Part shown: piece by piece, positions 1,612 to 32,366 of the stretch
Layout of the letters: each line of letters starts with the position of its first letter
Position numbering within the stretch: the first letter of the stretch is position 1
DNA from: Chrysochromulina tobinii
Lineage: Eukaryota
Assembly: GCA_001275005.1 (NCBI GenBank)
Contig: JWZX01002042.1
Span: 1-32,641 of the forward strand
Reading direction: 5' to 3'
Length of the DNA: 32,641 nucleotides
The notes under the pieces: generated by a model
Databases searched by the model: none
Told to the model about the DNA's origin: nothing
What the model saw: the letters and a program-made list of their open reading frames with translations, nothing else
Translations under genes and position numbers: made by a program

Positions 1612-1874
1612 GTTCTGCAAGGATGTTCTGACTCAATTCAATTGCGAGAAAAGTTTTGCGACACGACGCCACGTTTCGGAGCGTCACAGAGGGCGAAATT
1701 GCATGCAACGGTGTCAAACGAGCAACCGAGAAAGCGCCACGAACCCTCCATCGTGTTCAGACACGGGGTAATACATTCACATTCACACACGCGCCATTCA
1801 CGTCCTCCATGGTCGGAAAGCGTCCCGTCCGTGTCGTCCCGTTGTGCGTGACGCCAAGTCGCTGAGTGTACCTT

Positions 1875-4800
1875 ATGGTCGATGCTGCGCTCGTGTACCG
1901 TCGCGGCGTTGAAGCGTTCAACTCCAACGACTTGGTGTCAGCACGTGCCCACTTTGAGGCGGCCACCTTGGCCGCACCAATCGCTTGGGAACCTCTCCTT
2001 TCACTCGCGCACGTACACGTTCGTGCTGGCGAGGTCTTTGCGGCAGCAGAGAGCATGGACGCTGCTGTGGCCCGCTTGTCGGCGTCGGCGGCGGAAAGAA
2101 CGACGATGGACGCCTTTTGCTCCGCGGCTCGGCCGCTGCTACCAGTTCTGCCACAAGGACGTGCAGTGGACATTTGCAATTCGCCAAGTGCGCAGTATGA
2201 CTTTCCCGGGCCGCCATCCACGCCAGTGCCATTGGAAGAATCCCGAGCAGCAGCAGCAGCTCCGCTCCACCTCACAGATCACGCATGCAGCTCGAGCGCT
2301 GGCCAGCTGGAAGCACGCCATTTGGTCTGCGCTGCCGAGTCGTCGGCCACTCCATTTGACACCGAGGCTGCTGCCTTGCTGAGCGCGTCCACCTTTGGGG
2401 AGGGCGTGTGCGTGTGCGCGTCCCTGCATGAGGGCACGAATGCTGATTTGGAGGATTGGCTCGCACAGTACCGCTGCTCCACGCGAGGAGGCAGCAGCCG
2501 ACGCCCCCATTCTGGCGCCCATGTCGTGCTCTACGACGATCGGCGTTTGTCGGGTGTCGAATGGGAAGCTGCCTCGTGGTCGCTAGAACCGTGGGTCGAA
2601 TCGGGCTGGCTCACCTGGAAGCACACAGCACCGGAGCCACACGATAAGCGAGCGCAAGGTTCGTCACAACACGAGCACTTGCATGCGACGTCGCCCTCCG
2701 CCTCGGATGCCCGACGGCCTCCCGGGCAGGCGCGTCGCGTCGCGTGCCATGAGCAGCTTGCACGCCATCCGGGGTGCAACTGGATGGCGATGATCGAGGC
2801 ACCCTATGAGAGTCTCGTTCACGGGAGCTCGTCGGAGATCCCGCAGCGAGATCACGGGAGCTCGTCGGAGATCCCGCAGCGAGATCACGGGAGCTCGTCG
2901 GAGATCCCGCAGCGAGATCACGGGAGCTCGTCGGAGCATAGAGGGGCTTGCGAGCAGTCGCGAGCGCCGCCGGTATCGACGACTTCGATCCCATCGCAAG
3001 ACGTTGAGCCCGACGCGGGCGCGTCGGCGAGCGCGTCGCCGAGCGCCAGGGGTGAATGCCCTGCTGCCGCCGGTGAAACCAGCCGCTCACGCCTACCTGG
3101 CGATGGCACAATGCGAGTGGGCGTCGTGCGCTTCGGCCTAGGCGGCTCGCGCCCTTCTCGCGGTTCACAGCTGGAGGTTGAGCTGCCGGTGCGCCCGTTG
3201 CCGGTGGTTTCGGATCGTCGAGAAGCCACGTGGGGGCGCTGCATCCGGACGGACGGAACGCTGTGCGCATCGCTCGACGAGACGGCGGTACTGATCCGCC
3301 TCACGGGCACGCACGAGTCTACCGCAGGGGCTGATGACAATCACAATCGGACGCACGAGTCTACCGCTGGGGCTGATGACCATCACAATCGGACGCACGA
3401 GTCTACCGCTGGGGCTGATGACAATCACAATCGGACACTCGATCCGTATGGCACTCTTCATCATCGGACGAAGGACGAAACGTCTCGTCGACGTGGGGCC
3501 AATAGTGCGGTGCCACCGCTGCTCTGGCCACCGACGGCGCTCGGTGCGCTCAGGGTTCACCGATACACTGGCCGCGCTTGGGGTGATCACAGCAGTGGGA
3601 GGGGCGATGGCCGTAGAACGGGGCATGTTGGACATGGGGGCAAAGATGGGCGGGGAGGGCCGAGCGGCGCAACTTCACACCGCGCAGCTTCACACTCAGC
3701 TTCACAGCGCCTCTTCGGCCTCGTCGTCGATCCGTTCGGAAGGGAAGCTTTCGAGGCTTGCTTGGCAACGGGCACGCCCAGCTATGATCGCGACGACGCG
3801 CGCAGCGGCAGCGACGACGCGCTCGCTTTTGGCTCTTGGGCAGCAGCCGCCTCGGAGGCTGTGACGCACGGTGACGGCCTCGCCATGTTTCGAGGCGCGT
3901 TGAGCCGCGCCGAAGCTTCTTTGCTACGTGAAGACCTTTTGAGCGCGATCCCGCCCGCAAAGCGCACGACGCGTGTCTTCGCCAACCACATGTGCCAGGT
4001 GCGATCTCCCTTGATCTCCCTTGGTTGCCCTTGATTGCCCCCGATGGCCTTCTGAGCGCTCGTTGGCTCCGTGGCCGAACAGTGCGTCGAAGGAGAGCCG
4101 CGCTCATCGGGCCACGACCCGAGCTGCGAGCCACTCTCTCCCGTGCTGCTGCAGCTCGCAGCTCACCCGCACGTGCTCCGGCTCGTGCGCTCGCTCTTGG
4201 GCGAAGACTCGAGGCTTCACAACGCCGGGCTCTCGCTCGTCACGCCGCCTCCCGAAGCAAAAGGCGAGACGCCCGGGACGACGCCCGAGCGATGGCTCGC
4301 TGCGCCCGGGACGACGCCCGAGCGATGGCTCGCTGCGCCCGGGACGACGCCCGAGCGATGGCTCGCTGCGCCCGGTACGACGCTCGCTGCGCACCTGCCC
4401 CATCAGGACCAGCCCGTGAACAGCGCGCGTGTGTGGAGAGGGCGCGCACCGCCACCCACGCACCCGCTCTCGCTGCAGGCGCTCTGGATGCTGGATGACT
4501 TCACTTGGGACAATGGGGCCTTCTACACGCTTCCTCGCACGCAACGCCGAACCGAGCACATCGACTCGTGGGCTACGGAGGCCGCGTCTCGCGCCAACGC
4601 GTCCTCCGCGGCGGCTATGCGCGCCGCCGCGGCCCGCGGGCTCCTACCCACGCGTCTCGTCACCGGGCGCGCTGGCGACGTGGCCTTTGCGCTCGGCTCC
4701 CTCTGGCATGCCCCCTCCACATCCCTCCCGGGTCAACGTCCCCGGCTTGCGCTCCTCTTTGAGTACGCACCCTCGTTCGTGCAGCCACGGGACCGGTACT

Positions 4801-6285
4801 CGCCCGCAGTGCTGCGTCGTCATCGGCTCCCCGAACAGCTCTGGCCCATTTTCCCACTGCTCCAGCCACATGCACATGGGCAGCGGCCGGTGCCGTCCTA
4901 TGGTGCCGCCGAGTCTCCATCCAATGCACCCTGGACTTCTTCCGCCGCTTTTGCCTCCAATTCTTCCGCCCCTTTTGCCTCCAATCCTGCCGCCGCTTCT
5001 ACCGCCAATGCACCCTCATCCGGGCCCAGGGCAGTGGATAGGGGCTGCGGGCCTCAGGACGTCGTCTCCGTGTTCGAATGGTATGCGATGGCGCGGGAAC
5101 GGCCCTGGTGCGTGCACGCGCGCACTCGAGTCGTGCTGCGTGGTGGCGTGACAAGCGTGCCGGTAGTCGGCCTTGGAACGGGATCGCCCGACGATGAGCC
5201 GGAGGTGATCGCGGCGGCCCTTCGAGGAGTATCGGATGACCTCTGATTGCATCTGATGACCTCTGAGTGCCTCCCTCATCAGGTGATCGCGGCGGCCCTC
5301 GAAGAGTATCGGATGACCTCTGATTGCATCTGATGACCTCTGAGTGCCTCCCTCATCAGGTGATCGCGGCGGCCCTTCGAGCAGGCTTCACCCTCATCGA
5401 CACCGGCGAGCTCTATGGCAACGAGGAGCGCATCCGCGAGGGCATCCTATTGAGCGGCATGCATCGTGAGAGCTTGATTCTCTCGAGCAAGGCAGGCCGC
5501 TGGTGCGAGGGCGAGTTGCCACCAACGGTCGCCGCGCGTCTACCTGCCGAGTATCGATCGCACGCGCAACAGGGCAGCCCACTTCTACGCGGAGTCTACC
5601 CAACACCCCGAGGCACTCTAGGGCGTGGTGTGTGCATCGGGGGTGCGGCCGAGACGCGCGCCGCGCTCGAGAGGACGCTCGCCCGGCTCGGCACCGAGTA
5701 CGTGGATCTCTATTTGCTCCATTGGCCTCTCACGCATGCCGCCTATGCGCTGGATGACGCTCGGCATGCGGCCGTTCGTCTTGAGGCGTGGCGGGAGCTC
5801 GTGCGCCTCAAGAGGCGTGGCAAGATCCGTGCGATCGGCGTGAGCAACTTCTCGCCGCGCCAGATCGACGAGATTGCGCCCATTGAGATCCCACAGCTGG
5901 TGCAGGTTGAGTTGCATCTGCAGCTCCAACGGCCGGAGCTGCGCGCCTACTGCGAGGCACGAGGCATCTTGCTCCAGGCGTATGGCCATCACCGTCCCGA
6001 GCTGCGAGCCCATCCGATACTGGCGCTGGCGGCGGAGGTGCTCACGCGCGGCACGTCGATGGCACAGAGCAGCAGCAGCGTTGGGCTCGTCGGTATGAGA
6101 TGGTCGCTGCAGGCCGGGGTAACGGTAATCCCTCGCTCGCGCCGGCTGGCTTACGTGCAGGACAATGCGAGGGTCTTCGAAGTGCCGCCTTGACGGACGA
6201 TATGCTCCAGGTCCTCGAGGGCGTCGATGCGAATGCGAGTCTGTATGGACTGCACGAGGCGTTCGTACAAGATTGGATTGCGTAA
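1875..6285 (+). CDS. Multidomain protein: TPR, degenerate GT92/GT-A-like region, PhyH-type Fe(II)/2OG dioxygenase, aldo-keto reductase
   Basis: Exons 1875-3998, 4083-5204 and 5360-6193 (or to 6285 after a frame slip near 6188). Both introns are phase-0 GT-AG and join in frame (NHMCQ|CVEGE; DEPE|VIAAAL). TPR: YRRGVEAFNSNDLVSARAHFEAA. PhyH: PHQD...LQALWMLDDFTWDNGA...GDVAFALGSLWH...RLALLFEY. AKR: VPVVGLGTG, IDTGELYGNE, LGTEYVDLYLLHWP, GKIRAIGVSNFS. Confidence 0.8.
2820..2936 (+). repeat. 33-nt in-frame coding tandem repeat x3.5 (HGSSSEIPQRD)
   Basis: CACGGGAGCTCGTCGGAGATCCCGCAGCGAGAT repeated perfectly. Confidence 0.95.
3309..3434 (+). repeat. 42-nt in-frame coding tandem repeat x3 (THESTAGADDNHNR)
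   Basis: Units start at 3309, 3351 and 3393 with one or two substitutions. Confidence 0.95.
3999..4082 (+). other. GT-AG intron (84 nt) built from decamer repeats
   Basis: CAG|GTGCG ... GAACAG|TGC. Contains GATCTCCCTT GATCTCCCTT GGTTGCCCTT GATTGCCCCC and an in-frame TGA (4032). Confidence 0.8.
4271..4390 (+). repeat. 33-nt in-frame coding tandem repeat x3.5 (PGTTPERWLAA) just before the PhyH HxD motif
   Basis: Units start at 4271, 4304, 4337 and 4370. Confidence 0.95.
5205..5359 (+). other. GT-AG intron (155 nt) made of two stacked 78- and 77-nt units, with a 24-nt flanking direct repeat
   Basis: AGGTGATCGCGGCGGCCCTTCGAG at 5203-5226 and 5358-5381, with a degenerate third copy at 5281. Removing the intron restores the AKR N-terminal sequence. 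Confidence 0.85.
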
Positions 6286-7949: not shown

Positions 7950-8871
7950 ATGCCGCCTCGTAAAGCGACTTCGCCAGCACCGCAGCGACGGGCGAGGTCG
8001 CCAGCACTGCAGCGGACGGGCTCGGTGACGATACCGACCCTCGAGAACTGGAAGTGGACTGCTGGCAACACTGTGACCGGCAACGTGTACGGAAAGCCCG
8101 GCACTCCCGATGGCACGCAGATGATGACCAGCACTGTGCCGCCCGAGGGCAGGCTTGGGACGCACGTGGTGCGCGTGCTGCCTCAGAGTGCTCTCGCCGC
8201 CGCCACCGCTGCTGTTGCGGCTGGCTGCTGCGCGTGTGGCCGCCTGCTCGCGTAGCTCTGCGTGTGAGCGTGCCGCTGACGCACGCCGTCGCATTGTCCA
8301 GGTGACCGAGTCGGGCAGTTCCTACCTGCTCGGGAAGCCCGAGCAAGTCTCGGGCAATAGCGGCGGGCTCGAAACTGCAGAGCAGGGCTTAACGACTGGT
8401 GAGGCACTCACGCTTCTTGAGAAGGAGGCTGGAATTGAATGCTCCTGCAAGCTCGTCCTTCTTTTCGCCGTTATGAGCATTATAATCCAGGCCGTTTCTT
8501 ATCTCATCTTTTGGCCCGCCTTTGGCGAGAAGCTGACAATGGTAATGCACTGGATAATCTCCCTTTACTGGGTGTCGCAACATGGTTCTCACCCGGAACG
8601 TTATCTCCTTGGAATGAAACTGATCTCTACGCACTCTCTGAAGCCATGGCGCTCGCCAGTCGGCTTCTTTGTCATGCAAATATGCGCGATGTTCCTTGGG
8701 GCTACTCTTATCGGTTTCCTCCTCCTTTTCCCATGTGGCTGTTGTGGTACTCCGTATCAGAGCTGGCTCGACACTCAGTTCAGTGTCATGTGGGTGAGGT
8801 CTGCAGACTATTCAAAGTTCATGGCAGTCAACGAGAAGCGGATTCGCCGTGTCGACAAGTACGACGACTAG
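7950..8871 (+). CDS. Hypothetical membrane protein with an N-terminal SANTA-like beta domain and about 3 TM helices
   Basis: Exons 7950-8168 and 8302-8871 with phase-0 GT-AG intron 8169-8301. Spliced motif LENWKW...VTGNVYG...TS...[12 protein letters not shown]. Hydrophobic C-terminal half with a PCGCCG motif. Confidence 0.65.
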
Positions 8872-16384: not shown

Positions 16385-18920
16385 CTACGTGTCTTGCGTG
16401 CGGACCCAGTCCAAGAGGGACGGTTCGACGCCAGCGGCGGCGAGAATGGCGGCTCCCGGCGGCGCAGGCTTCGCTAGCGGTGCGAGCCGAAGCGGGAGCT
16501 CGCGTGGGCGCATGTTGAGCGCGGCCAGCTCACGCGGCGAGCTGCACGCCAACGCAGCTACATCTCGACTACCACCGGACGCGGTGGGCACCTGTCGAGG
16601 CACCTGGGAGGAGAGCCTTCCCACACCGCCTCCGCCGCCAGATGTGCCCAGATGGGACAGAGCCATTGGCCGAGGCGAGTGGAGGGTGCCGCCAATGCCT
16701 TCGGAAGGGCGTGACAGCCGCAAGCGCGTTTCGGTCGGGGTCGCCCCACCGGCCGCCCCACCGAGGCAACGCGGCGAAGCCAACGCCGCCGAGAAGCCGC
16801 CGCTGCCTCCACTAGCGCCTGCGCCGCCGCCTGCGCCTCCGCCTGCGGGTGGCTGCCCATCGAGGATCCACTCGTGCCTGAGCGCCTCGTCGGGTGTGAA
16901 ACGGCTCGACGCCTCCCATCTTAGGCAACCTTCGAGGAAGGAGACGAACCCCGCATCGGAGCAGCGGAGGGCGCCCATAATGTCCGTCGAGCCTGGTCGC
17001 CGTCGGAGGCCCTTGGAATTCGTTACGAGCCGAGGCTGCCCGTGCTCGTCGAAGAAGGTCTTCCGGCGCGACGCCTCCTTGGCGAGCTCGGGCGGCGGCG
17101 GCCCGAGCACCTCCATCACACAGCAGAGCTGCTCCACCTCTGACTCGCCGGCGAAGAGAGGGTTGCCCGTGAACAGCTCCGCCAACACGCAGCCTAGGGA
17201 CCAGATGTCTATGGCGCAAAAGTAGGGCCGGCCGAGGAGCACCTCGGGCGCGCGGTAGAAGCGGCTCTGAATGTACGCGTACACGGGCTGCGCGTCGAAG
17301 CACGACGAGCCGAAGTCGACCAGCTTGATCGCCGACCGGCCCGGAGTGGTCAGCAGGATGTTCTCGGGCTTCCGATCGCAGTGTGAAGTGAACGTGGACG
17401 TGTCAGTGGCCCTCAGAGGCACTCGGTGGTACTCAGAGGCACTCAGAGGCACTCAGAGGCACTCAGAGGCACGCAGAGGCACGCAGAGGCATGCAGAGGA
17501 ACTCAGAGGCACTCAGAGGCACTCAGAGGCACTCAGAGGCACGCAGAGGCACGCAGCGGCATGCAGCGGCACTCAGAGGCACTCAGCGGCACTCAGCGGC
17601 ACTCAGAGGCACTCAGAGGCACTCAGCGGCACGCAGCGGCAATTCACGACACTCACCTTCAGATCACAGTGCACGATCTCGCGCTGGCGCAGGAAGCGCA
17701 GCGCCTCGAGTAGCTGCACCGCGAAGCGCCGGATCAGCGGGAGCGAGACGCCCATGAAACAATTGGCCTTGAGGAACTCGTACAGGCTCATGGAGAGCAG
17801 CTCGCATGCAAGACACAGGTGGCCCCGGAAGGAGAAGTGCTCATGCAAGCGCAGGCAATGGCACTCGTCGCGGGGGTCGTACTCAGCGACCGTGCGCAGC
17901 ACCTGCGCCAACCAGACGGACTCAGAGACCCTCACTAGCCATTCGATCACTCATCATCAGCGTGCTCGTGCTGCCTCAGGCGTGCTCGTGCGCACTCAGG
18001 CACACTCAGCGCAGTCAGCGCACCTTGGCCTCGACGAAACCCGCGCACGTAATCCGCGGACGTAATCCCGGCACGTAATCAGCGCACTTAATCAGCACAC
18101 GCATTCAGCGCACCTTGGCCTCGACGAGCGCTTGCTTGTGGAAGCGCGCCTTGTTCCGGATCACCTTGATGGCCACCGGCCGCTGCATCTGGTGGTCGAA
18201 GGCGCGGAGTACCTGCCCGAAGGCGCCGCGACCCACGACGCCGAGCACCTCATACCGGTAGTTCAGGTGGTCGTGCAGCGTCACATGGTAGTCGCCACGC
18301 TCGTCGTCGTACCTGTGAGGGAGGGACGGGGCGAAGTGCTGAGCCGTTGCATGCAAGGCAGCTCGGCCTTCCTCGTCGTCGTACCCGTGATTATGCTCGC
18401 CCGGCAGCAGCGTCGCGCGCGGCTTGCTCGCGGTCTCGCCAGCCCAATAGACGGTCCCCACGTCGCGGATCTCGGCACGCTCATACTCCGTAAGCCCGGT
18501 GGTGCCCAGTCCACGCAGCACTTCGTCGCCTGACAGCGACACGCCAAAACCAAGCCCGAGTGAACCACCACCCAGCCGGCCATCGTTGCCGCTCGTGCTG
18601 CCACCGTCATCAGCTCGCGGCTGCGCAGCCGGAGGTGCATGCGACGATGGCGGTAGCTGGTGCTGCGACGGCTCCGGCGGCGGCGGCTGCGTCTGTGGCG
18701 GCTGCTGCGGCCTCTGCGGCGGCTGCGGCGGCTGCGAGACCTGTTCGCTCACTGCCAGTCCCAACGCTGTGGCCGCACTCGTCAACGTTATCACGTTCTG
18801 CCGCGGGCTGGGCTGTCGCCGCTGCAGCAGCGCAGACGCGGGCCGTAGGGACAGCGGCTGCCGCTGCGGCTGCGTGCTCCGCTTGGAGGACAGCGTTGGG
18901 AGTGCACCATGAGTCCGCAT
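16385..18920 (-). CDS. DYRK: Dual-specificity tyrosine-regulated kinase (class 2 DYRK-like), 4 exons
   Basis: Exons 18920-18385, 18312-18114, 17902-17657 and 17368-16385. Spliced product has the DH box HNHGYDDERGDY, GRGAFGQV, VAIKVIRNK, IVHCDLK|PENILL, DFGSSC and the activation loop YAYIQSRFYRAPEV. Confidence 0.92.
17369..17656 (-). other. DYRK intron (288 nt) containing about 23 decamer repeats, with a 15-nt imperfect flanking direct repeat
   Basis: AAG|GTGAGT ... CGGAAG|CCC. Array 17411-17640 of ACTCAGAGGC variants (GAGTGCCTCT on the sense strand). Confidence 0.9.
17903..18113 (-). other. DYRK intron (211 nt) composed of two stacked GT..AG units (18113-18024 and 18023-17903)
   Basis: 23-nt repeat TCAGCGCACCTTGGCCTCGACGA at 18015-18037 and 18105-18127 spans the exon end plus the donor site. 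Confidence 0.85.
18313..18384 (-). other. DYRK intron (72 nt, stop-free, frame-preserving) with a 14-nt flanking direct repeat
   Basis: CTCGTCGTCGTACC at 18300-18313 and 18372-18385. Removal restores the DH box. Confidence 0.8.
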
Positions 18921-20062: not shown

Positions 20063-21234
20063 ATGCGGACTGTCGCTCTTCTCCTCCTTCCTATCGTCTC
20101 AGCGCTGCAGATCGGCAGTCCAAGATGCGACTCGGCAGTGAGGGCACGTACGCCCGTGATGGCAAGCCCAGCGGCTTTTGATGGCAGTCTGGTGCCCGCT
20201 GGGAAATCGTCACCTGGGATGGCCATCCTCTTCGGTGCGTGCTTCGCAGAGTTCCCAAGTGCAGGGTTCGTGAAGAGTGCCGCCCACAGATGGCCGTCCG
20301 ATTCCCGCTCCCATGCTTAGACTGCGACGGCGTCCTCGCGGACACGGAGCGCGATGGCCACCGCGTGAGTTTCAACAAGGTCTTCGCGGAGCGCGGCTTC
20401 GGCTTCGAGTGGGGCGTCGAGGAGTACGGTAGGCTGTGCGAGGTCGGCGGCGGCAAGGAGCGGATCACAGCGTACATGAACGCAAACGGCTGCTGGCCAG
20501 CTGACTGCAGGAATCCGACGACGACGGACCTGACCGGTCCTAAGGGTCTGCCCCTCGATCCAACGCGCCTCGCCCTCGTCTCCGAATGCCACAAGCGCAA
20601 GACAAAGCTCTTCCAAGAGCTCATCGGTTCGGGAGTGGTGCCGCTGCGGCCGGGCGTCCTACGGATCGTGGACGAGGCGATCGCGGCCGACGTTCCGCTC
20701 GCCGTTTGCTCCACGAGCAATGAGGACGCGGTGCGCACCCTCATCACGACACTCATGGGCGACGAGCGCGCAGCCAAGTTCTCGTTCTTCTGCGGCGACT
20801 GCGTGCCCAACAAGAAGCCCAAGCCGGACGTGTACAACTTGGCATCGAAGACGATGGGCCTCGACAAGTCGGAGTGCATCGTGGTCGAGGACTCCGGCAT
20901 TGGGACTAAGGCGGCGAAGGCGGCAGGCATGCCTTTGCCACGTCACCGCTGAGCCTGATTCCCACTCCTGGTCTCTGAGTGTCTCTGATGAATGCCCCTG
21001 ACTGCAGGCATGACCTGCCTCGTGACGATGAGCACTTACACGGCTGACGACGACTTTAGCGGCGCCGACCGGATCGTATCGGAGCTTGGGGAGCCCGGCA
21101 GCAAGCTGTGCGTCACGCTCGCCGACATGCGCGCGCTGCTCCGATCAGCTGACGTCGTCGGTACGGTGGTGCCCACGAGCGGCTCCAGCGTGGTCGCGCC
21201 CACAAGCGAGGTCGCGCCCACGACAAAGTTCTGA
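20063..21234 (+). CDS. cbbY: Plastid-targeted CbbY-family HAD phosphatase (xylulose-1,5-bisphosphate phosphatase-like), 3 exons
   Basis: Exons 20063-20234, 20321-20926 and 21008-21234. Signal/transit peptide, AILF|DCDGVLADTERDGHR, GGGKER, KKPKPDVY, VVEDSGIG, AAG|MTCLVTMSTYTADDDFSGAD. Intron 2 is GC-AG. Confidence 0.9.
20927..21007 (+). other. GC-AG intron (81 nt) with a 9-nt flanking direct repeat
   Basis: GCAGGCATG at 20923-20931 and 21004-21012. Internal GAGTGTCTCT/GAATGCCCCT units and an in-frame TGA at 20950. Confidence 0.8.
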
Positions 21235-29851: not shown

Positions 29852-31942
<2,091 letters not shown>

Positions 31943-32366
31943 CGTCTTTCGCACGGTTGTCTTGGCGCCTTCGACCTCGTTCACACCCAATCGGCGCGAA
32001 AAAAGGACAAAGGAGTCAAGGGTGAAGGGAGGCAGAGCCGAGCCCTCCCAGACCACACAATGCAACGCCCCTCACACACGACCTCCCACACGTTTTCACC
32101 TGTGAGCGGGCAGTAACAGTGCCGTAGCACCGGTTGTCGTCTGTCGCGTCCGGTCGTGTTAACGTGTTCACACACTCGACACTGACAGGCGTACCTCGTG
32201 CCCAGGGGATGCAAGGGGAAATATTAAGTACGATAATTTTGCGGCACGGCGCTGCCTTTTCCGACTCGCAACAAGAATTTGTTCCATCAAGCATCTCGGA
32301 GATCCTCCTCAGTGCCTCCCTCTTCTCTCAGATCCTCCACTGTGCTTGTGGCCACACGCCCCGCGT

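What the first reader, a model, noticed from the sequence alone, without database searches (positions are those of the whole stretch)
17369..17656. Strand-polarised 10-bp repeat family fills introns of unrelated genes
Seen: on the transcript strand the fillers are variants of one decamer. They are GAGTGCCTCT x~23 here (DYRK, minus strand), GATGACCTCT/GATTGCATCT/GAGTGCCTCC (AKR, plus), GATCTCCCTT/GATTGCCCCC (3999-4082, plus), GATGACCTCG/GATGACCTTT and GATTGCCTCT (DHFR-TS, minus), and GAGTGTCTCT (cbbY, plus). The orientation always follows the gene. Inference: unit junctions create CTGA(T/G), which resembles the branch-point core. A TGA every 10 nt cycles through all three frames, so retained introns would be terminated. 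The period is also close to one helical turn. This looks like reiterated copying of a short template, as in telomerase-style synthesis, or a selected splicing or chromatin signal.
Basis: partly seen in the sequence, partly recalled or inferred. Interest (0 to 1): 0.75.

Follow-up and report, generated by a model that had tools for sequence, protein, structure and literature searches.

The report
Mobile introns built from 10-base repeats
In the freshwater alga Chrysochromulina tobinii, introns of many unrelated genes are filled with same-strand copies of one 10-base unit, and duplicated host sequence on both sides suggests they were likely made by a small mobile element that creates new introns.

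Summary
Window 17403-17641 holds 23.9 copies of GAGTGCCTCT on the minus strand, inside a GT-AG intron (17369-17656) of a DYRK kinase gene. Six of 11 introns in the window (10 RNA joints plus the focal intron) carry the decamer family. All 32 intronic hits are in sense; hits elsewhere are at chance level.

A metagenome scan found the same arrays at 133 further non-redundant loci (scan truncated). The array strand matches the coding strand in 214 of 236 arrays by codon model. Pfam agrees in 24 of 27 informative loci (1 opposite, 2 with hits on both strands).

These are not plain minisatellites. About a third of arrays carry a conserved end: ...CCTCCCTCATCAG on the 3' side, or GTGAGTCTCGTYAATTGCCTCT on the 5' side, as in the DYRK intron. 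Arrays are bracketed by locus-specific direct repeats of 9-40 bp far more often than permuted controls. The downstream copy starts at the AG and begins with GT or GC.

Best reading: a low-complexity, introner-like mobile family. Its body is a reiterated branch-point-like plus pyrimidine unit. Polarity follows because it carries splice signals. Arrays also change length by whole units.

The copying mechanism is unresolved, and telomerase-style synthesis is neither shown nor excluded. I class this as a new variant of a known kind.

The parts
17369..17656 (-). Focal intron of the DYRK-type kinase gene (288 nt, GTGAGT...GGAAG). Its removal rejoins HCDLK|PENILL.
   Evidence: Sequence. Pkinase hits on both flanking ORFs, with HMM positions 59-126 and 120-263. 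DYRK3/DYRK2 are the top solved relatives. RNA contigs end at 17657 and run to 17383 with 2 mismatches. A further RNA contig runs unspliced to 17460, so a retained or unspliced form also exists.
17403..17641 (-). Decamer array, 23.9 copies of GAGTGCCTCT with variants GAGTGCCGCT, GCGTGCCTCT and GCATGCCTCT.
   Evidence: period 10, 89% matches, score 331. Units are laid out.
17635..17656 (-). 5' end of the insertion unit, GTGAGTGTCGTGAATTGCCGCT, which carries the donor site.
   Evidence: It matches 18 of 22 bases of GTGAGTCTCGTCAATTGCCTCT. That motif recurs directly upstream of decamer arrays in loci L001 (x3), L008, L068 and L101. Reversed-sequence control gives 0 hits.
17657..17671 (-). Upstream copy (exon end) of an imperfect 15-nt direct repeat, CACTGTGATCTGAAG.
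   Evidence: It matches 13 of 15 bases of the copy at 17369-17383. On its own this is marginal: a repeat score of 9 is reached by 6-7% of permuted pairs.
17369..17383 (-). Downstream copy of the 15-nt repeat, CACTGCGATCGGAAG. It forms the intron's 3' end and supplies the AG acceptor.
   Evidence: RNA contigs align here with exactly 2 mismatches.
5205..5359 (+). Intron upstream of the aldo-keto-reductase exon. It is two tandem 77-nt units, each GTGATCGCGG...GATGACCTCT GATTGCATCT GATGACCTCT GAGTGCCTCC CTCATCAG. The first 22 nt are repeated at the start of the next exon.
   Evidence: RNA joint 5202>5358 skips 155 nt and fits 24 positions equally well. GT..AG. Sequence and 22-nt flank repeat. TRF 77-nt unit x2.2.
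3999..4082 (+). Intron with degenerate units GATCTCCCTT, GATTGCCCCC and GATGGCCTTC.
   Evidence: RNA joint 3995>4080.. Two strict units in sense.
30152..30410 (-). Thymidylate-synthase intron between SCQMYQ and RSADLG. It holds 2.9 copies of a 90-nt unit containing GATTGCCTCT and GATGACCT(C/G)T units plus a copy of the exon edge.
   Evidence: RNA joint 30151>30411.. Seven strict units in sense, none antisense. The public protein P0003 reads ...[12 protein letters not shown] across it.
30573..30681 (-). DHFR-TS intron with GATTGC-type units. Eight exact bases are shared between the exon end and the intron end.
   Evidence: RNA joint 30570>30680, ambiguity 10..
30781..30898 (-). DHFR-TS intron with GATGACCTCG/GATGACCTTT units (7.5 copies).
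   Evidence: RNA joint 30777>30896. TRF. Six strict units in sense.
20927..21007 (+). GC-AG intron of the HAD (cbbY-like) hydrolase gene, with GAGTGTCTCT and related degenerate units. Nine bases are shared across the junction.
   Evidence: RNA joint 20922>21004, ambiguity 9. GC..AG. Sequence. One loose unit, CTGAB 5 in sense and 0 antisense.
17903..18113 (-). Neighbouring DYRK intron, rich in CTGA (8 sense, 0 antisense), with 13-nt GATTACGTGCGCG repeats and an internal copy of the exon end plus donor.
   Evidence: RNA joints 17898>18110 and alternative 17898>18020..

Best explanation
The 24-copy decamer array fills a spliced intron of a DYRK kinase gene and belongs to a family of sense-oriented decamer arrays present at 133 or more other loci; these arrays are likely the bodies of a small non-autonomous, introner-type mobile element that inserts with a 9-40-bp duplication of its target and is predicted to be spliced out because it brings a branch-point-like, pyrimidine-rich repeat plus one splice site and borrows the other from the duplication.

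Shown:
- The family, its strand polarity and its position inside genes.
- Two recurrent ends. One is [units]n-GAT(T/G)GCCTCC-CTCATCAG, followed by GT or GC. The other is GTGAGTCTCGTYAATTGCCTCT-[units]n, as in the DYRK intron.
- Locus-specific direct repeats bracketing the arrays.
- Splicing of the window's copies.
- Length change by whole units between alleles.

Inferred:
- The repeats are target-site duplications made at insertion.
- Splicing from the GT/GC at the start of the upstream copy to the element's AG (or from the element's GT to an AG in the downstream copy) restores the original message.
- Each unit (CTGAY + CCTCT) acts as a branch site plus a short pyrimidine tract.
- The commonest unit, GATGACCTCT, has no GT, GC or AG dinucleotide, so it offers no cryptic splice site.
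- Polarity arises because only sense insertions can be spliced out of coding sequence.
- Arrays grow and homogenise by slippage afterwards.

The enzyme or RNA that copies the element is unknown.
For: In the window:
- 32 of 37 pattern hits lie in 6 of the 11 introns. All are in sense, against 6.6 hits expected by chance for the whole window.
- 5 of 10 RNA joints fit 8-24 positions equally well, which means host sequence is duplicated across the intron.

Independent loci:
They form 133 non-redundant loci, none overlapping the window.
- 236 arrays had full flanks.
- By a codon model trained only on window exons, the array strand equals the flanking coding strand in 214 of 236 arrays and 110 of 119 loci.
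- In a Pfam test with 2 ORFs per strand for 50 loci, 27 loci gave hits. In 24 the hit was on the array strand, in 1 on the opposite strand, and in 2 on both.
- 74 of 99 array groups with 300-nt flanks have sense coding on both sides.

Ends:
- CTCATCAG lies within 30 nt downstream of 58 of 236 arrays. The reverse-complement motif lies upstream of only 3 of 236.
- The next dinucleotide after the AG is GT in 46, GC in 12 and other in 10 of 68.
- The 22-nt 5' end recurs in 4 loci plus the window, with 0 hits in reversed controls.

Duplications:
- A direct repeat of score 10 or more that contains no unit-like motif flanks 79 of 236 arrays, against 1.2% of permuted pairs.
- Among 69 arrays with the 3' end, 38 have a repeat of score 9 or more, against 6.2% of permuted pairs.
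- In 30 of those 38, the downstream copy starts within 3 nt of the AG. Lengths are 9-40 nt, median 22.5.

Instability:
- Culture and lake alleles (L005, L066) differ by 60-nt and 10-nt indels inside arrays.
- Adjacent units are identical in 59% of cases, against 15% for units from different arrays.

Literature:
- Introners that borrow one splice site from a target duplication are described, including in Chrysochromulina sp. That survey deliberately filtered out low-complexity families (PMC9860276, passages read).
Against: - 158 of 236 arrays show neither recognisable end.
- 31 of the 69 arrays with the 3' end lack a significant flanking repeat.
- No empty-site allele was seen, so mobility is inferred from footprints only.
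- Repeat lengths of 9-40 bp lie outside the 3-9 bp stated for known introners and do not point to any one transposase.
- No terminal inverted repeats and no autonomous partner were found.
- The focal intron's own flanking repeat is only 13 of 15 bases, which is marginal alone.
- The exact-excision test is noisy. Of 141 arrays with repeat score 8 or more, a GY..AG offset occurs in sense only in 60, antisense only in 23, both in 13 and neither in 45.
- Similarity between low-complexity sequences can arise convergently by slippage.
- Some long 'duplications' belong to tandemly multiplied intron units (window AKR and TS introns; L001, L020, L032).
Confidence: 0.68

Rival explanations
1. Ordinary in-situ minisatellites. 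Pre-existing introns expanded their own branch-point and pyrimidine region by replication slippage. Similar units arose convergently because splicing constrains what can expand. Nothing moved.
For: Arrays change by whole units between near-identical alleles. Adjacent units are far more alike than units of different arrays, 59% against 15%. 158 of 236 arrays have no recognisable conserved end. The introner survey treated such low-complexity similarity as possibly due to microsatellite expansion (PMC9860276).
Against: Slippage does not duplicate flanking exon sequence. Yet 79 of 236 arrays have a non-unit direct repeat of score 10 or more, against 1.2% of permuted pairs. The downstream copy starts at the AG in 30 of 38 cases. 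The same 13-nt 3' end and the same 22-nt 5' end recur at unrelated loci. Insertions sit inside highly conserved motifs: HCDLK|PEN, SCQMYQ|RS, and the EF-hand loop in L011.
Confidence: 0.15
2. Reiterated RNA-templated synthesis. A short RNA is reverse-transcribed at a nick or break. Copying stutters or stops within the repeat, giving variable unit numbers and target duplications of variable length, as with LINE/SINE tails. This would be the copying mechanism of the same family, not a separate entity.
For: Duplication length is variable, 9-40 bp. One end of the unit is constant. The other is the array, which abuts the duplication at variable phase, with element length modulo 10 spread over all classes. 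One to three bases (G, AG, CAG) are often shared between element end and target. That LINE/SINE insertion gives variable duplications and repeat tails is recalled knowledge, not tested here.
Against: No reverse transcriptase, template RNA or poly-A was looked for or found. Two unit types with the array on opposite sides of the constant end do not fit one simple tail model. Slippage and staggered-break repair explain the same features.
Confidence: 0.12
3. A selected signal is the primary cause. The decamers are kept in introns because they help splicing through multiple branch sites, silence retained introns through TGA in all frames, or phase nucleosomes through the 10-bp period. Their spread is a by-product.
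For: CTGA(T/C/G) occurs 42 times in sense and 7 times antisense in the window's introns. In the conserved 3' end, the last CTGAT lies about 16 nt before the AG and is followed by pyrimidines. Only 3 of 66 modelled introns can be read through. An E. huxleyi transcriptome paper found widespread intron retention with premature stops (PMC4028052, passages).
Against: No branch-point, decay or chromatin data exist here. Selection alone does not explain the flanking duplications or the conserved ends. RNA folding gave no consistent structure.
Confidence: 0.1

Closest known systems
Introners of Chrysochromulina sp. (marine metagenome-assembled genome; Gozashti et al. 2022, PMC9860276, Fig. 2C legend read)
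   Same: Same haptophyte genus. Related intron sequences sit in unrelated genes. No terminal inverted repeats. The element carries the 5' splice site and borrows the 3' site from a target duplication, as in the DYRK intron and the L001/L008 type here.
   Different: A 4-bp duplication is reported there, against 9-40 bp here. No decamer array is described. That survey removed low-complexity families on purpose, so this family would not have been kept. Most copies here are the opposite type, carrying the 3' site and borrowing the 5' site.
Introners of Symbiodinium microadriaticum (same paper, Fig. 2B legend)
   Same: The element carries its 3' splice site and takes the GT donor from the target duplication. 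This is the arrangement of the ...CCTCCCTCATCAG|GT units here.
   Different: Symbiodinium has 4-bp duplications plus terminal inverted repeats, a DNA-transposon signature. Here the duplications are long and variable, there are no inverted repeats, and the body is a minisatellite.
Introner elements of Micromonas pusilla and Aureococcus anophagefferens (cited as refs 12-14 in PMC9860276; details recalled, not read here)
   Same: Hundreds to thousands of short, non-autonomous, sense-oriented, efficiently spliced intron copies in an alga.
   Different: Those have complex, unique consensus sequences and short fixed duplications (3-9 bp). They are not tandem decamers.
Repeat-flanked mobile intron noted earlier in this scan in the same genome (e1-2577349)
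   Same: Same organism. An intron is bracketed by a 15-base copy of host sequence that supplies the GT donor, with relatives in lake metagenomes.
   Different: That note concerned a 66-base intron in a polyketide-synthase gene. As far as its summary shows, it did not describe the decamer array, its polarity or the two end types.
Ordinary intronic minisatellites (VNTRs)
   Same: Head-to-tail 10-nt units, unit-number polymorphism and local homogenisation.
   Different: Minisatellites are not expected to share one orientation relative to transcription across more than 100 genes, to carry conserved splice-site ends, or to be bracketed by duplicated exon sequence.

Membership tests
Introner / introner-like elements | Related intron sequences at many unrelated gene positions in one genome | tested here: met
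   The decamer family occurs in 6 of 11 window introns and at 133 non-redundant further loci. Shared 3' and 5' ends are seen. Caveat: the shared body is low-complexity.
Introner / introner-like elements | Sense orientation in genes and removal by splicing | tested here: met
   RNA-contig joints remove 5 window copies exactly; the focal copy's removal is supported only indirectly. 214 of 236 arrays are in sense by codon model. In the Pfam test, 24 of 27 informative loci have the hit on the array strand, 1 on the opposite strand and 2 on both. Splicing of the copies outside the window was not tested.
Introner / introner-like elements | Insertion footprint: a target-site duplication that differs from locus to locus | tested here: met
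   79 of 236 arrays have a non-unit direct repeat of score 10 or more, against 1.2% of permuted pairs. 38 of 69 arrays with the 3' end have one, against 6.2% of permuted pairs. The length, 9-40 bp, is atypical.
Introner / introner-like elements | One or both splice sites recruited from the duplication | tested here: met
   After the element's AG, the duplication begins with GT in 46 and GC in 12 of 68 cases. In the GTGAGT type, the duplication ends in AG.
Introner / introner-like elements | Evidence of recent gain: presence/absence between strains or orthologues | not tested
   No empty-site allele was available. Only perfect duplications up to 38 nt hint at recency.
DNA-transposon (MITE-type) introners | Fixed short duplication and terminal inverted repeats | tested here: not met
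   Duplication length varies from 9 to 40 nt. The element's array-side boundary is variable. No inverted ends were seen beyond a 5-7-nt GATGA/TCATC resemblance read from the sequences.
Ordinary minisatellite | No preference for strand or gene context | tested here: not met
Telomerase-like or retroposon tail repeat | Repeat synthesised from an RNA template by a reverse transcriptase | not testable with these tools
   Only indirect features are available: variable duplication length and variable repeat number next to the duplication. The telomere repeat of this alga was not examined.
Hammerhead ribozyme (CUGAUGA core) or any curated RNA family | Match to an Rfam covariance model | tested here: not met
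   No Rfam family reaches its gathering score anywhere in the window.

The most novel reading that the evidence does not exclude
The spliceosome's own 3' module (branch point plus pyrimidine tract) has become a self-propagating minisatellite. A decamer 'introner' would be copied into coding sequence by an RNA-templated, target-primed process that truncates within the repeat, leaving 9-40-bp duplications. It would account for most introns of Chrysochromulina tobinii, a class of intron-making element that earlier surveys discarded as low complexity.
Probability: 0.2. Interest if true: 0.85.

Novelty: new variant of a known kind. Interest (0 to 1): 0.6.

Why it matters
How new spliceosomal introns arise is a long-standing question. 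Introners are the best-documented source.

This family suggests an introner can be little more than a reiterated branch-point and pyrimidine unit with one splice site. It also suggests such elements leave long, variable target duplications. Because the main pan-eukaryotic survey filtered out low-complexity families, elements of this kind may be under-counted.

C. tobinii is culturable and compact. Six of 11 introns in this window carry the units. Intron gain, repeat instability and branch-site choice could therefore be studied directly in one organism.

Tried and rejected
- **Whole genome:** no genome is held for the window, so no genome-wide census of introns against intergenic DNA was possible.
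- **ORF test after in-silico excision:** uninformative in this GC-rich DNA. An open frame of 20 or more codons on both sides was found in sense for 41 of 66 and in antisense for 55 of 66.
- **Exact-match duplication finder:** too strict. Only 24 of 65 had an exact repeat of 8 nt or more starting right after the AG. It was replaced by a scored repeat with permuted-pair controls.
- **RNA structure:** the DYRK array folds better than shuffles (z = -2.69). A DHFR-TS array does not (z = +0.89). There is no consistent structure.
- **Rfam:** nothing in the window.
- **ESM Atlas:** gave no useful taxonomy. The organism came instead from a public protein name on a contig of the window's exact length.
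- **Allele pairs:** L008/L071, L021/L115, L037/L146, L001/L053 and L002/L007 showed no whole-unit array differences. Only L005/L066 did.
- **RNA depth:** the summed contig depth is 60-100 over the bin holding the array, against about 5-12 beside it. This may reflect many transcribed copies, but contig depth cannot be read as expression.
- **Literature:** nine full-text searches found no paper describing decamer repeats in haptophyte nuclear introns. I read passages of PMC4028052, PMC4839659, PMC13334186, PMC11347835, PMC4580454, PMC4815162, bioRxiv 10.1101/283549 and PMC10288648. The E. huxleyi genome paper (Nature 2013) and its supplement are not held and might bear on this. Supplements of PMC9860276 were not opened.
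- **Earlier findings:** look-ups by sequence and by a long word list returned nothing.
Full report
**What is there**

The window is GC-rich (about 64%) nuclear DNA of the haptophyte Chrysochromulina tobinii. A public protein named 'dihydrofolate reductase-thymidylate synthase [Chrysochromulina tobinii]' is 99% identical to the window's DHFR-TS exon. It sits on a contig of exactly the window's length.

At 17403-17641, Tandem Repeats Finder reports 23.9 copies of a 10-nt unit with 89% matches. The unit reads GAGTGCCTCT on the minus strand. The array lies in a 288-nt GTGAGT...AG intron at 17369-17656 on the minus strand. This intron splits the catalytic-loop motif HCDLK|PENILL of a protein kinase. 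The kinase's closest solved relatives are DYRK3 and DYRK2. Period 10 is the dominant short period in the whole window.

**Introns and polarity in the window**

RNA contigs from four public metatranscriptome runs give ten splice joints. All resolve to GT-AG, or in one case GC-AG, after allowing for junction ambiguity.

The focal intron is not listed as a joint, but the evidence fits splicing:
- One contig ends exactly at 17657.
- Two contigs run from the downstream exon to 17383 with exactly two mismatches, followed by 15 unplaced letters. This is what a spliced message would give, because the last 15 exon bases (CACTGTGATCTGAAG) resemble the intron's last 15 bases (CACTGCGATCGGAAG) at 13 of 15 positions.
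- Another contig reads on into the array, so an unspliced or retained form exists too.

The pattern GAKKRCCYYB occurs 37 times in the window, against 6.6 +/- 2.4 in shuffles. Of these, 32 lie in six of the eleven introns. Introns make up 1,592 nt, or 4.9% of the window. All 32 are on the transcript strand and none is antisense. The five hits elsewhere are at chance level. With a looser pattern, eight of eleven introns carry units. In the introns, TGA outnumbers TCA 93 to 18, and CTGA(T/C/G) outnumbers its complement 42 to 7.

**Beyond the window**

They reduce to 133 non-redundant loci, and none overlaps the window. Only the first 80 came with long flanks.

These loci hold 266 arrays of two or more units, of which 236 have 60-nt flanks. 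Many loci come from mixed-culture assemblies of what appears to be the same alga. Others come from lake metagenomes.

Strand was tested in two ways:
- **Codon model.** A codon log-odds model trained only on 13.5 kb of window exons places the coding strand on the array's strand for 214 of 236 arrays and 110 of 119 loci.
- **Pfam.** For the 50 loci with at least 500-nt flanks, I sent the two longest ORFs of each strand to Pfam. Twenty-seven loci gave a hit at E<=1e-5. In 24 the hit was on the array's strand, in 1 on the opposite strand (L046), and in 2 on both. One of the 24, L004, is an AT-rich contig that is probably not algal.

Of 99 array groups with 300-nt flanks, 74 have sense coding signal on both sides, which is an intron-like position.

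**Anatomy of the unit**

Reading the loci showed that the arrays are parts of insertion-like units.

The common type is [partial unit]-(GATGACCTCT / GATGGCCTCT / GATTGCCTCT)n-GAT(T/G)GCCTCC-CTCATCAG:
- CTCATCAG lies within 30 nt downstream of 58 of 236 arrays. Its reverse complement lies upstream of only 3.
- The dinucleotide after the AG is GT in 46 and GC in 12 of 68 cases.

A rarer type has the constant part on the other side: GTGAGTCTCGTYAATTGCCTCT-(GATTGCCTCT)n:
- It occurs in L001 (three tandem copies), L008, L068 and L101.
- The DYRK intron matches it at 18 of 22 positions.
- Reversed-sequence controls give no hit.

In all, 78 of 236 arrays show one or both ends, and 158 show neither.

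**Flanking duplications**

Arrays are bracketed by direct repeats of host sequence:
- After extending arrays through degenerate units, a repeat of score 10 or more that contains no unit-like motif flanks 79 of 236 arrays, against 1.2% of permuted upstream/downstream pairs.
- Among the 69 arrays with the 3' end, 38 have a repeat of score 9 or more, against 6.2% of permuted pairs.
- In 30 of those 38, the downstream copy begins within three bases of the AG.
- The repeats are 9-40 nt long, median 22.5.
- In 30 of the 38, the upstream copy ends 0-9 nt before the array.

The same holds inside the window. Five of ten joints fit 8-24 positions equally well. The intron before the aldo-keto-reductase exon has a perfect 22-nt repeat.

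Splicing from the GT at the start of the upstream copy to the element's AG removes one copy plus the element and leaves the message as it was. RNA contigs show exactly this for the window's copies.

Several units have since been multiplied in tandem together with their duplication. Examples are the 77-nt unit x2.2 at 5203-5376 and the 90-nt unit x2.9 at 30167-30433, and loci L001, L020 and L032.

**How it most likely works**

The footprints are those of introner-type elements. Related sequences sit at unrelated gene sites, with locus-specific duplications, and one splice site is carried while the other is borrowed. The published survey of introners describes both arrangements, one of them in a marine Chrysochromulina (PMC9860276, passages read).

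What differs here is the body. It is a reiteration of CTGAY plus CCTCT, which looks like a branch site followed by a short pyrimidine run. That CTRAY-like sequences are typical branch sites is recalled knowledge, not tested here. In the conserved 3' end, the last CTGAT lies about 16 nt before the AG.

By inspection, the commonest unit, GATGACCTCT, contains no GT, GC or AG dinucleotide, so an array of it offers no cryptic splice site. Because 10 is not a multiple of 3, its TGA falls in all three frames. Only 3 of 66 modelled introns can be read through.

The opposite strand of the array has no stop codon at all. In L046, an antisense array sits inside a long open frame.

Polarity is therefore most simply explained by the element carrying directional splice signals. 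Sense copies can be spliced out of coding sequence and survive. This step is inferred.

Arrays then drift in length:
- Culture and lake alleles differ by 60-nt and 10-nt indels within arrays.
- Neighbouring units are identical in 59% of cases, against 15% for units from different arrays.

**What is not settled**

- No empty-site allele was seen, so mobility rests on footprints.
- The duplications are longer and more variable than the 3-9 bp quoted for known introners. There are no inverted ends, and the array-side boundary is variable.
- These features would fit target-primed reverse transcription with truncation in the repeat. They would also fit capture at staggered breaks. I could not discriminate between the two.
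- The focal intron's own repeat (13 of 15) is marginal alone. Its assignment to the family rests mainly on its 5' end and its units.
- Branch-point use, decay of retained forms and any chromatin effect are untested.

**Novelty**

Nine full-text searches and passages from eight papers gave no description of such decamer introns in haptophytes. Calls are listed under Tried and rejected. The E. huxleyi genome paper is not held.

A preprint notes high repeat content in E. huxleyi introns (10.1101/283549). The introner survey states that low-complexity families were removed because their similarity might come from microsatellite expansion.

The present work agrees with it. It adds the decamer body, the polarity tests and the two end types.

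I class this as a new variant of a known kind.

Noticed in passing
window 18313-18384 (-): A 72-nt intron without any decamer unit is also bracketed by a duplication. Its first 13 bases, GTACGACGACGAG, recur at the start of the next exon, and the RNA joint fits 14 positions. The duplication footprint is therefore not limited to decamer introns.
   Followed up: partly
window 17903-18113 (-): This DYRK intron contains an internal copy of the exon end plus donor (GTCGAGGCCAAG|GTGCGCT). RNA contigs show two forms, skipping 211 nt or only 121 nt, so the duplicated donor appears to be used as an alternative site.
   Followed up: partly
window 5203-5376 (+) and 30167-30433 (-): Whole intron units, meaning element plus duplicated exon edge, are themselves repeated in tandem: 77 nt x2.2 and 90 nt x2.9. 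The RNA joints skip the entire block.
   Followed up: partly
L046:1205-1255 (+ strand coordinates): An antisense-oriented array (GGTCATCAGA units) lies inside a 638-codon open frame that bears a TIR_2 domain. It reads through as ...[16 protein letters not shown].... The antisense strand of the decamer has no stop codon in any frame, so such copies could persist as coding insertions.
   Followed up: partly
window 30899-32071 (-) against public protein P0003: The public C. tobinii DHFR-TS model (469 aa) lacks about 75 residues. These include the conserved start of thymidylate synthase, which the window ORF encodes (Pfam positions 2-87) and which a 77%-identical relative (P0004, 544 aa) retains. 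The public model probably removes coding sequence as an intron.
   Followed up: partly
window 1866-6190 (+): RNA joints link three long ORFs into one transcript: 1866-3998 (no family), 4083-5204 (PhyH dioxygenase domain) and 5360-6190 (aldo-keto reductase domain). This may be a multi-domain gene. The first ORF carries perfect in-frame tandem repeats of 33 and 42 nt (2819-2936, 3309-3436).
   Followed up: no
window 8024-8129 (-): An RNA joint in the fasciclin-domain gene skips 104 nt with two extra letters (AG) between the sides and GT..AC ends on the plus strand. I could not resolve it to a canonical intron.
   Followed up: no
window 17430 (loose end, run X15): An RNA contig passes from this array into a different decamer variant (GATTGCCACT / GATTGCCACC type) that is not in the window. 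Either contigs collapse across family members, or another transcribed copy exists elsewhere.
   Followed up: no
L005:150-1750 and L066 (reverse strand): This locus is flanked by AAAACAC-rich repeats. The culture and lake versions are 96-99% identical except for a roughly 390-nt stretch that is unrelated between them. It may be another kind of mobile or recombining unit.
   Followed up: no
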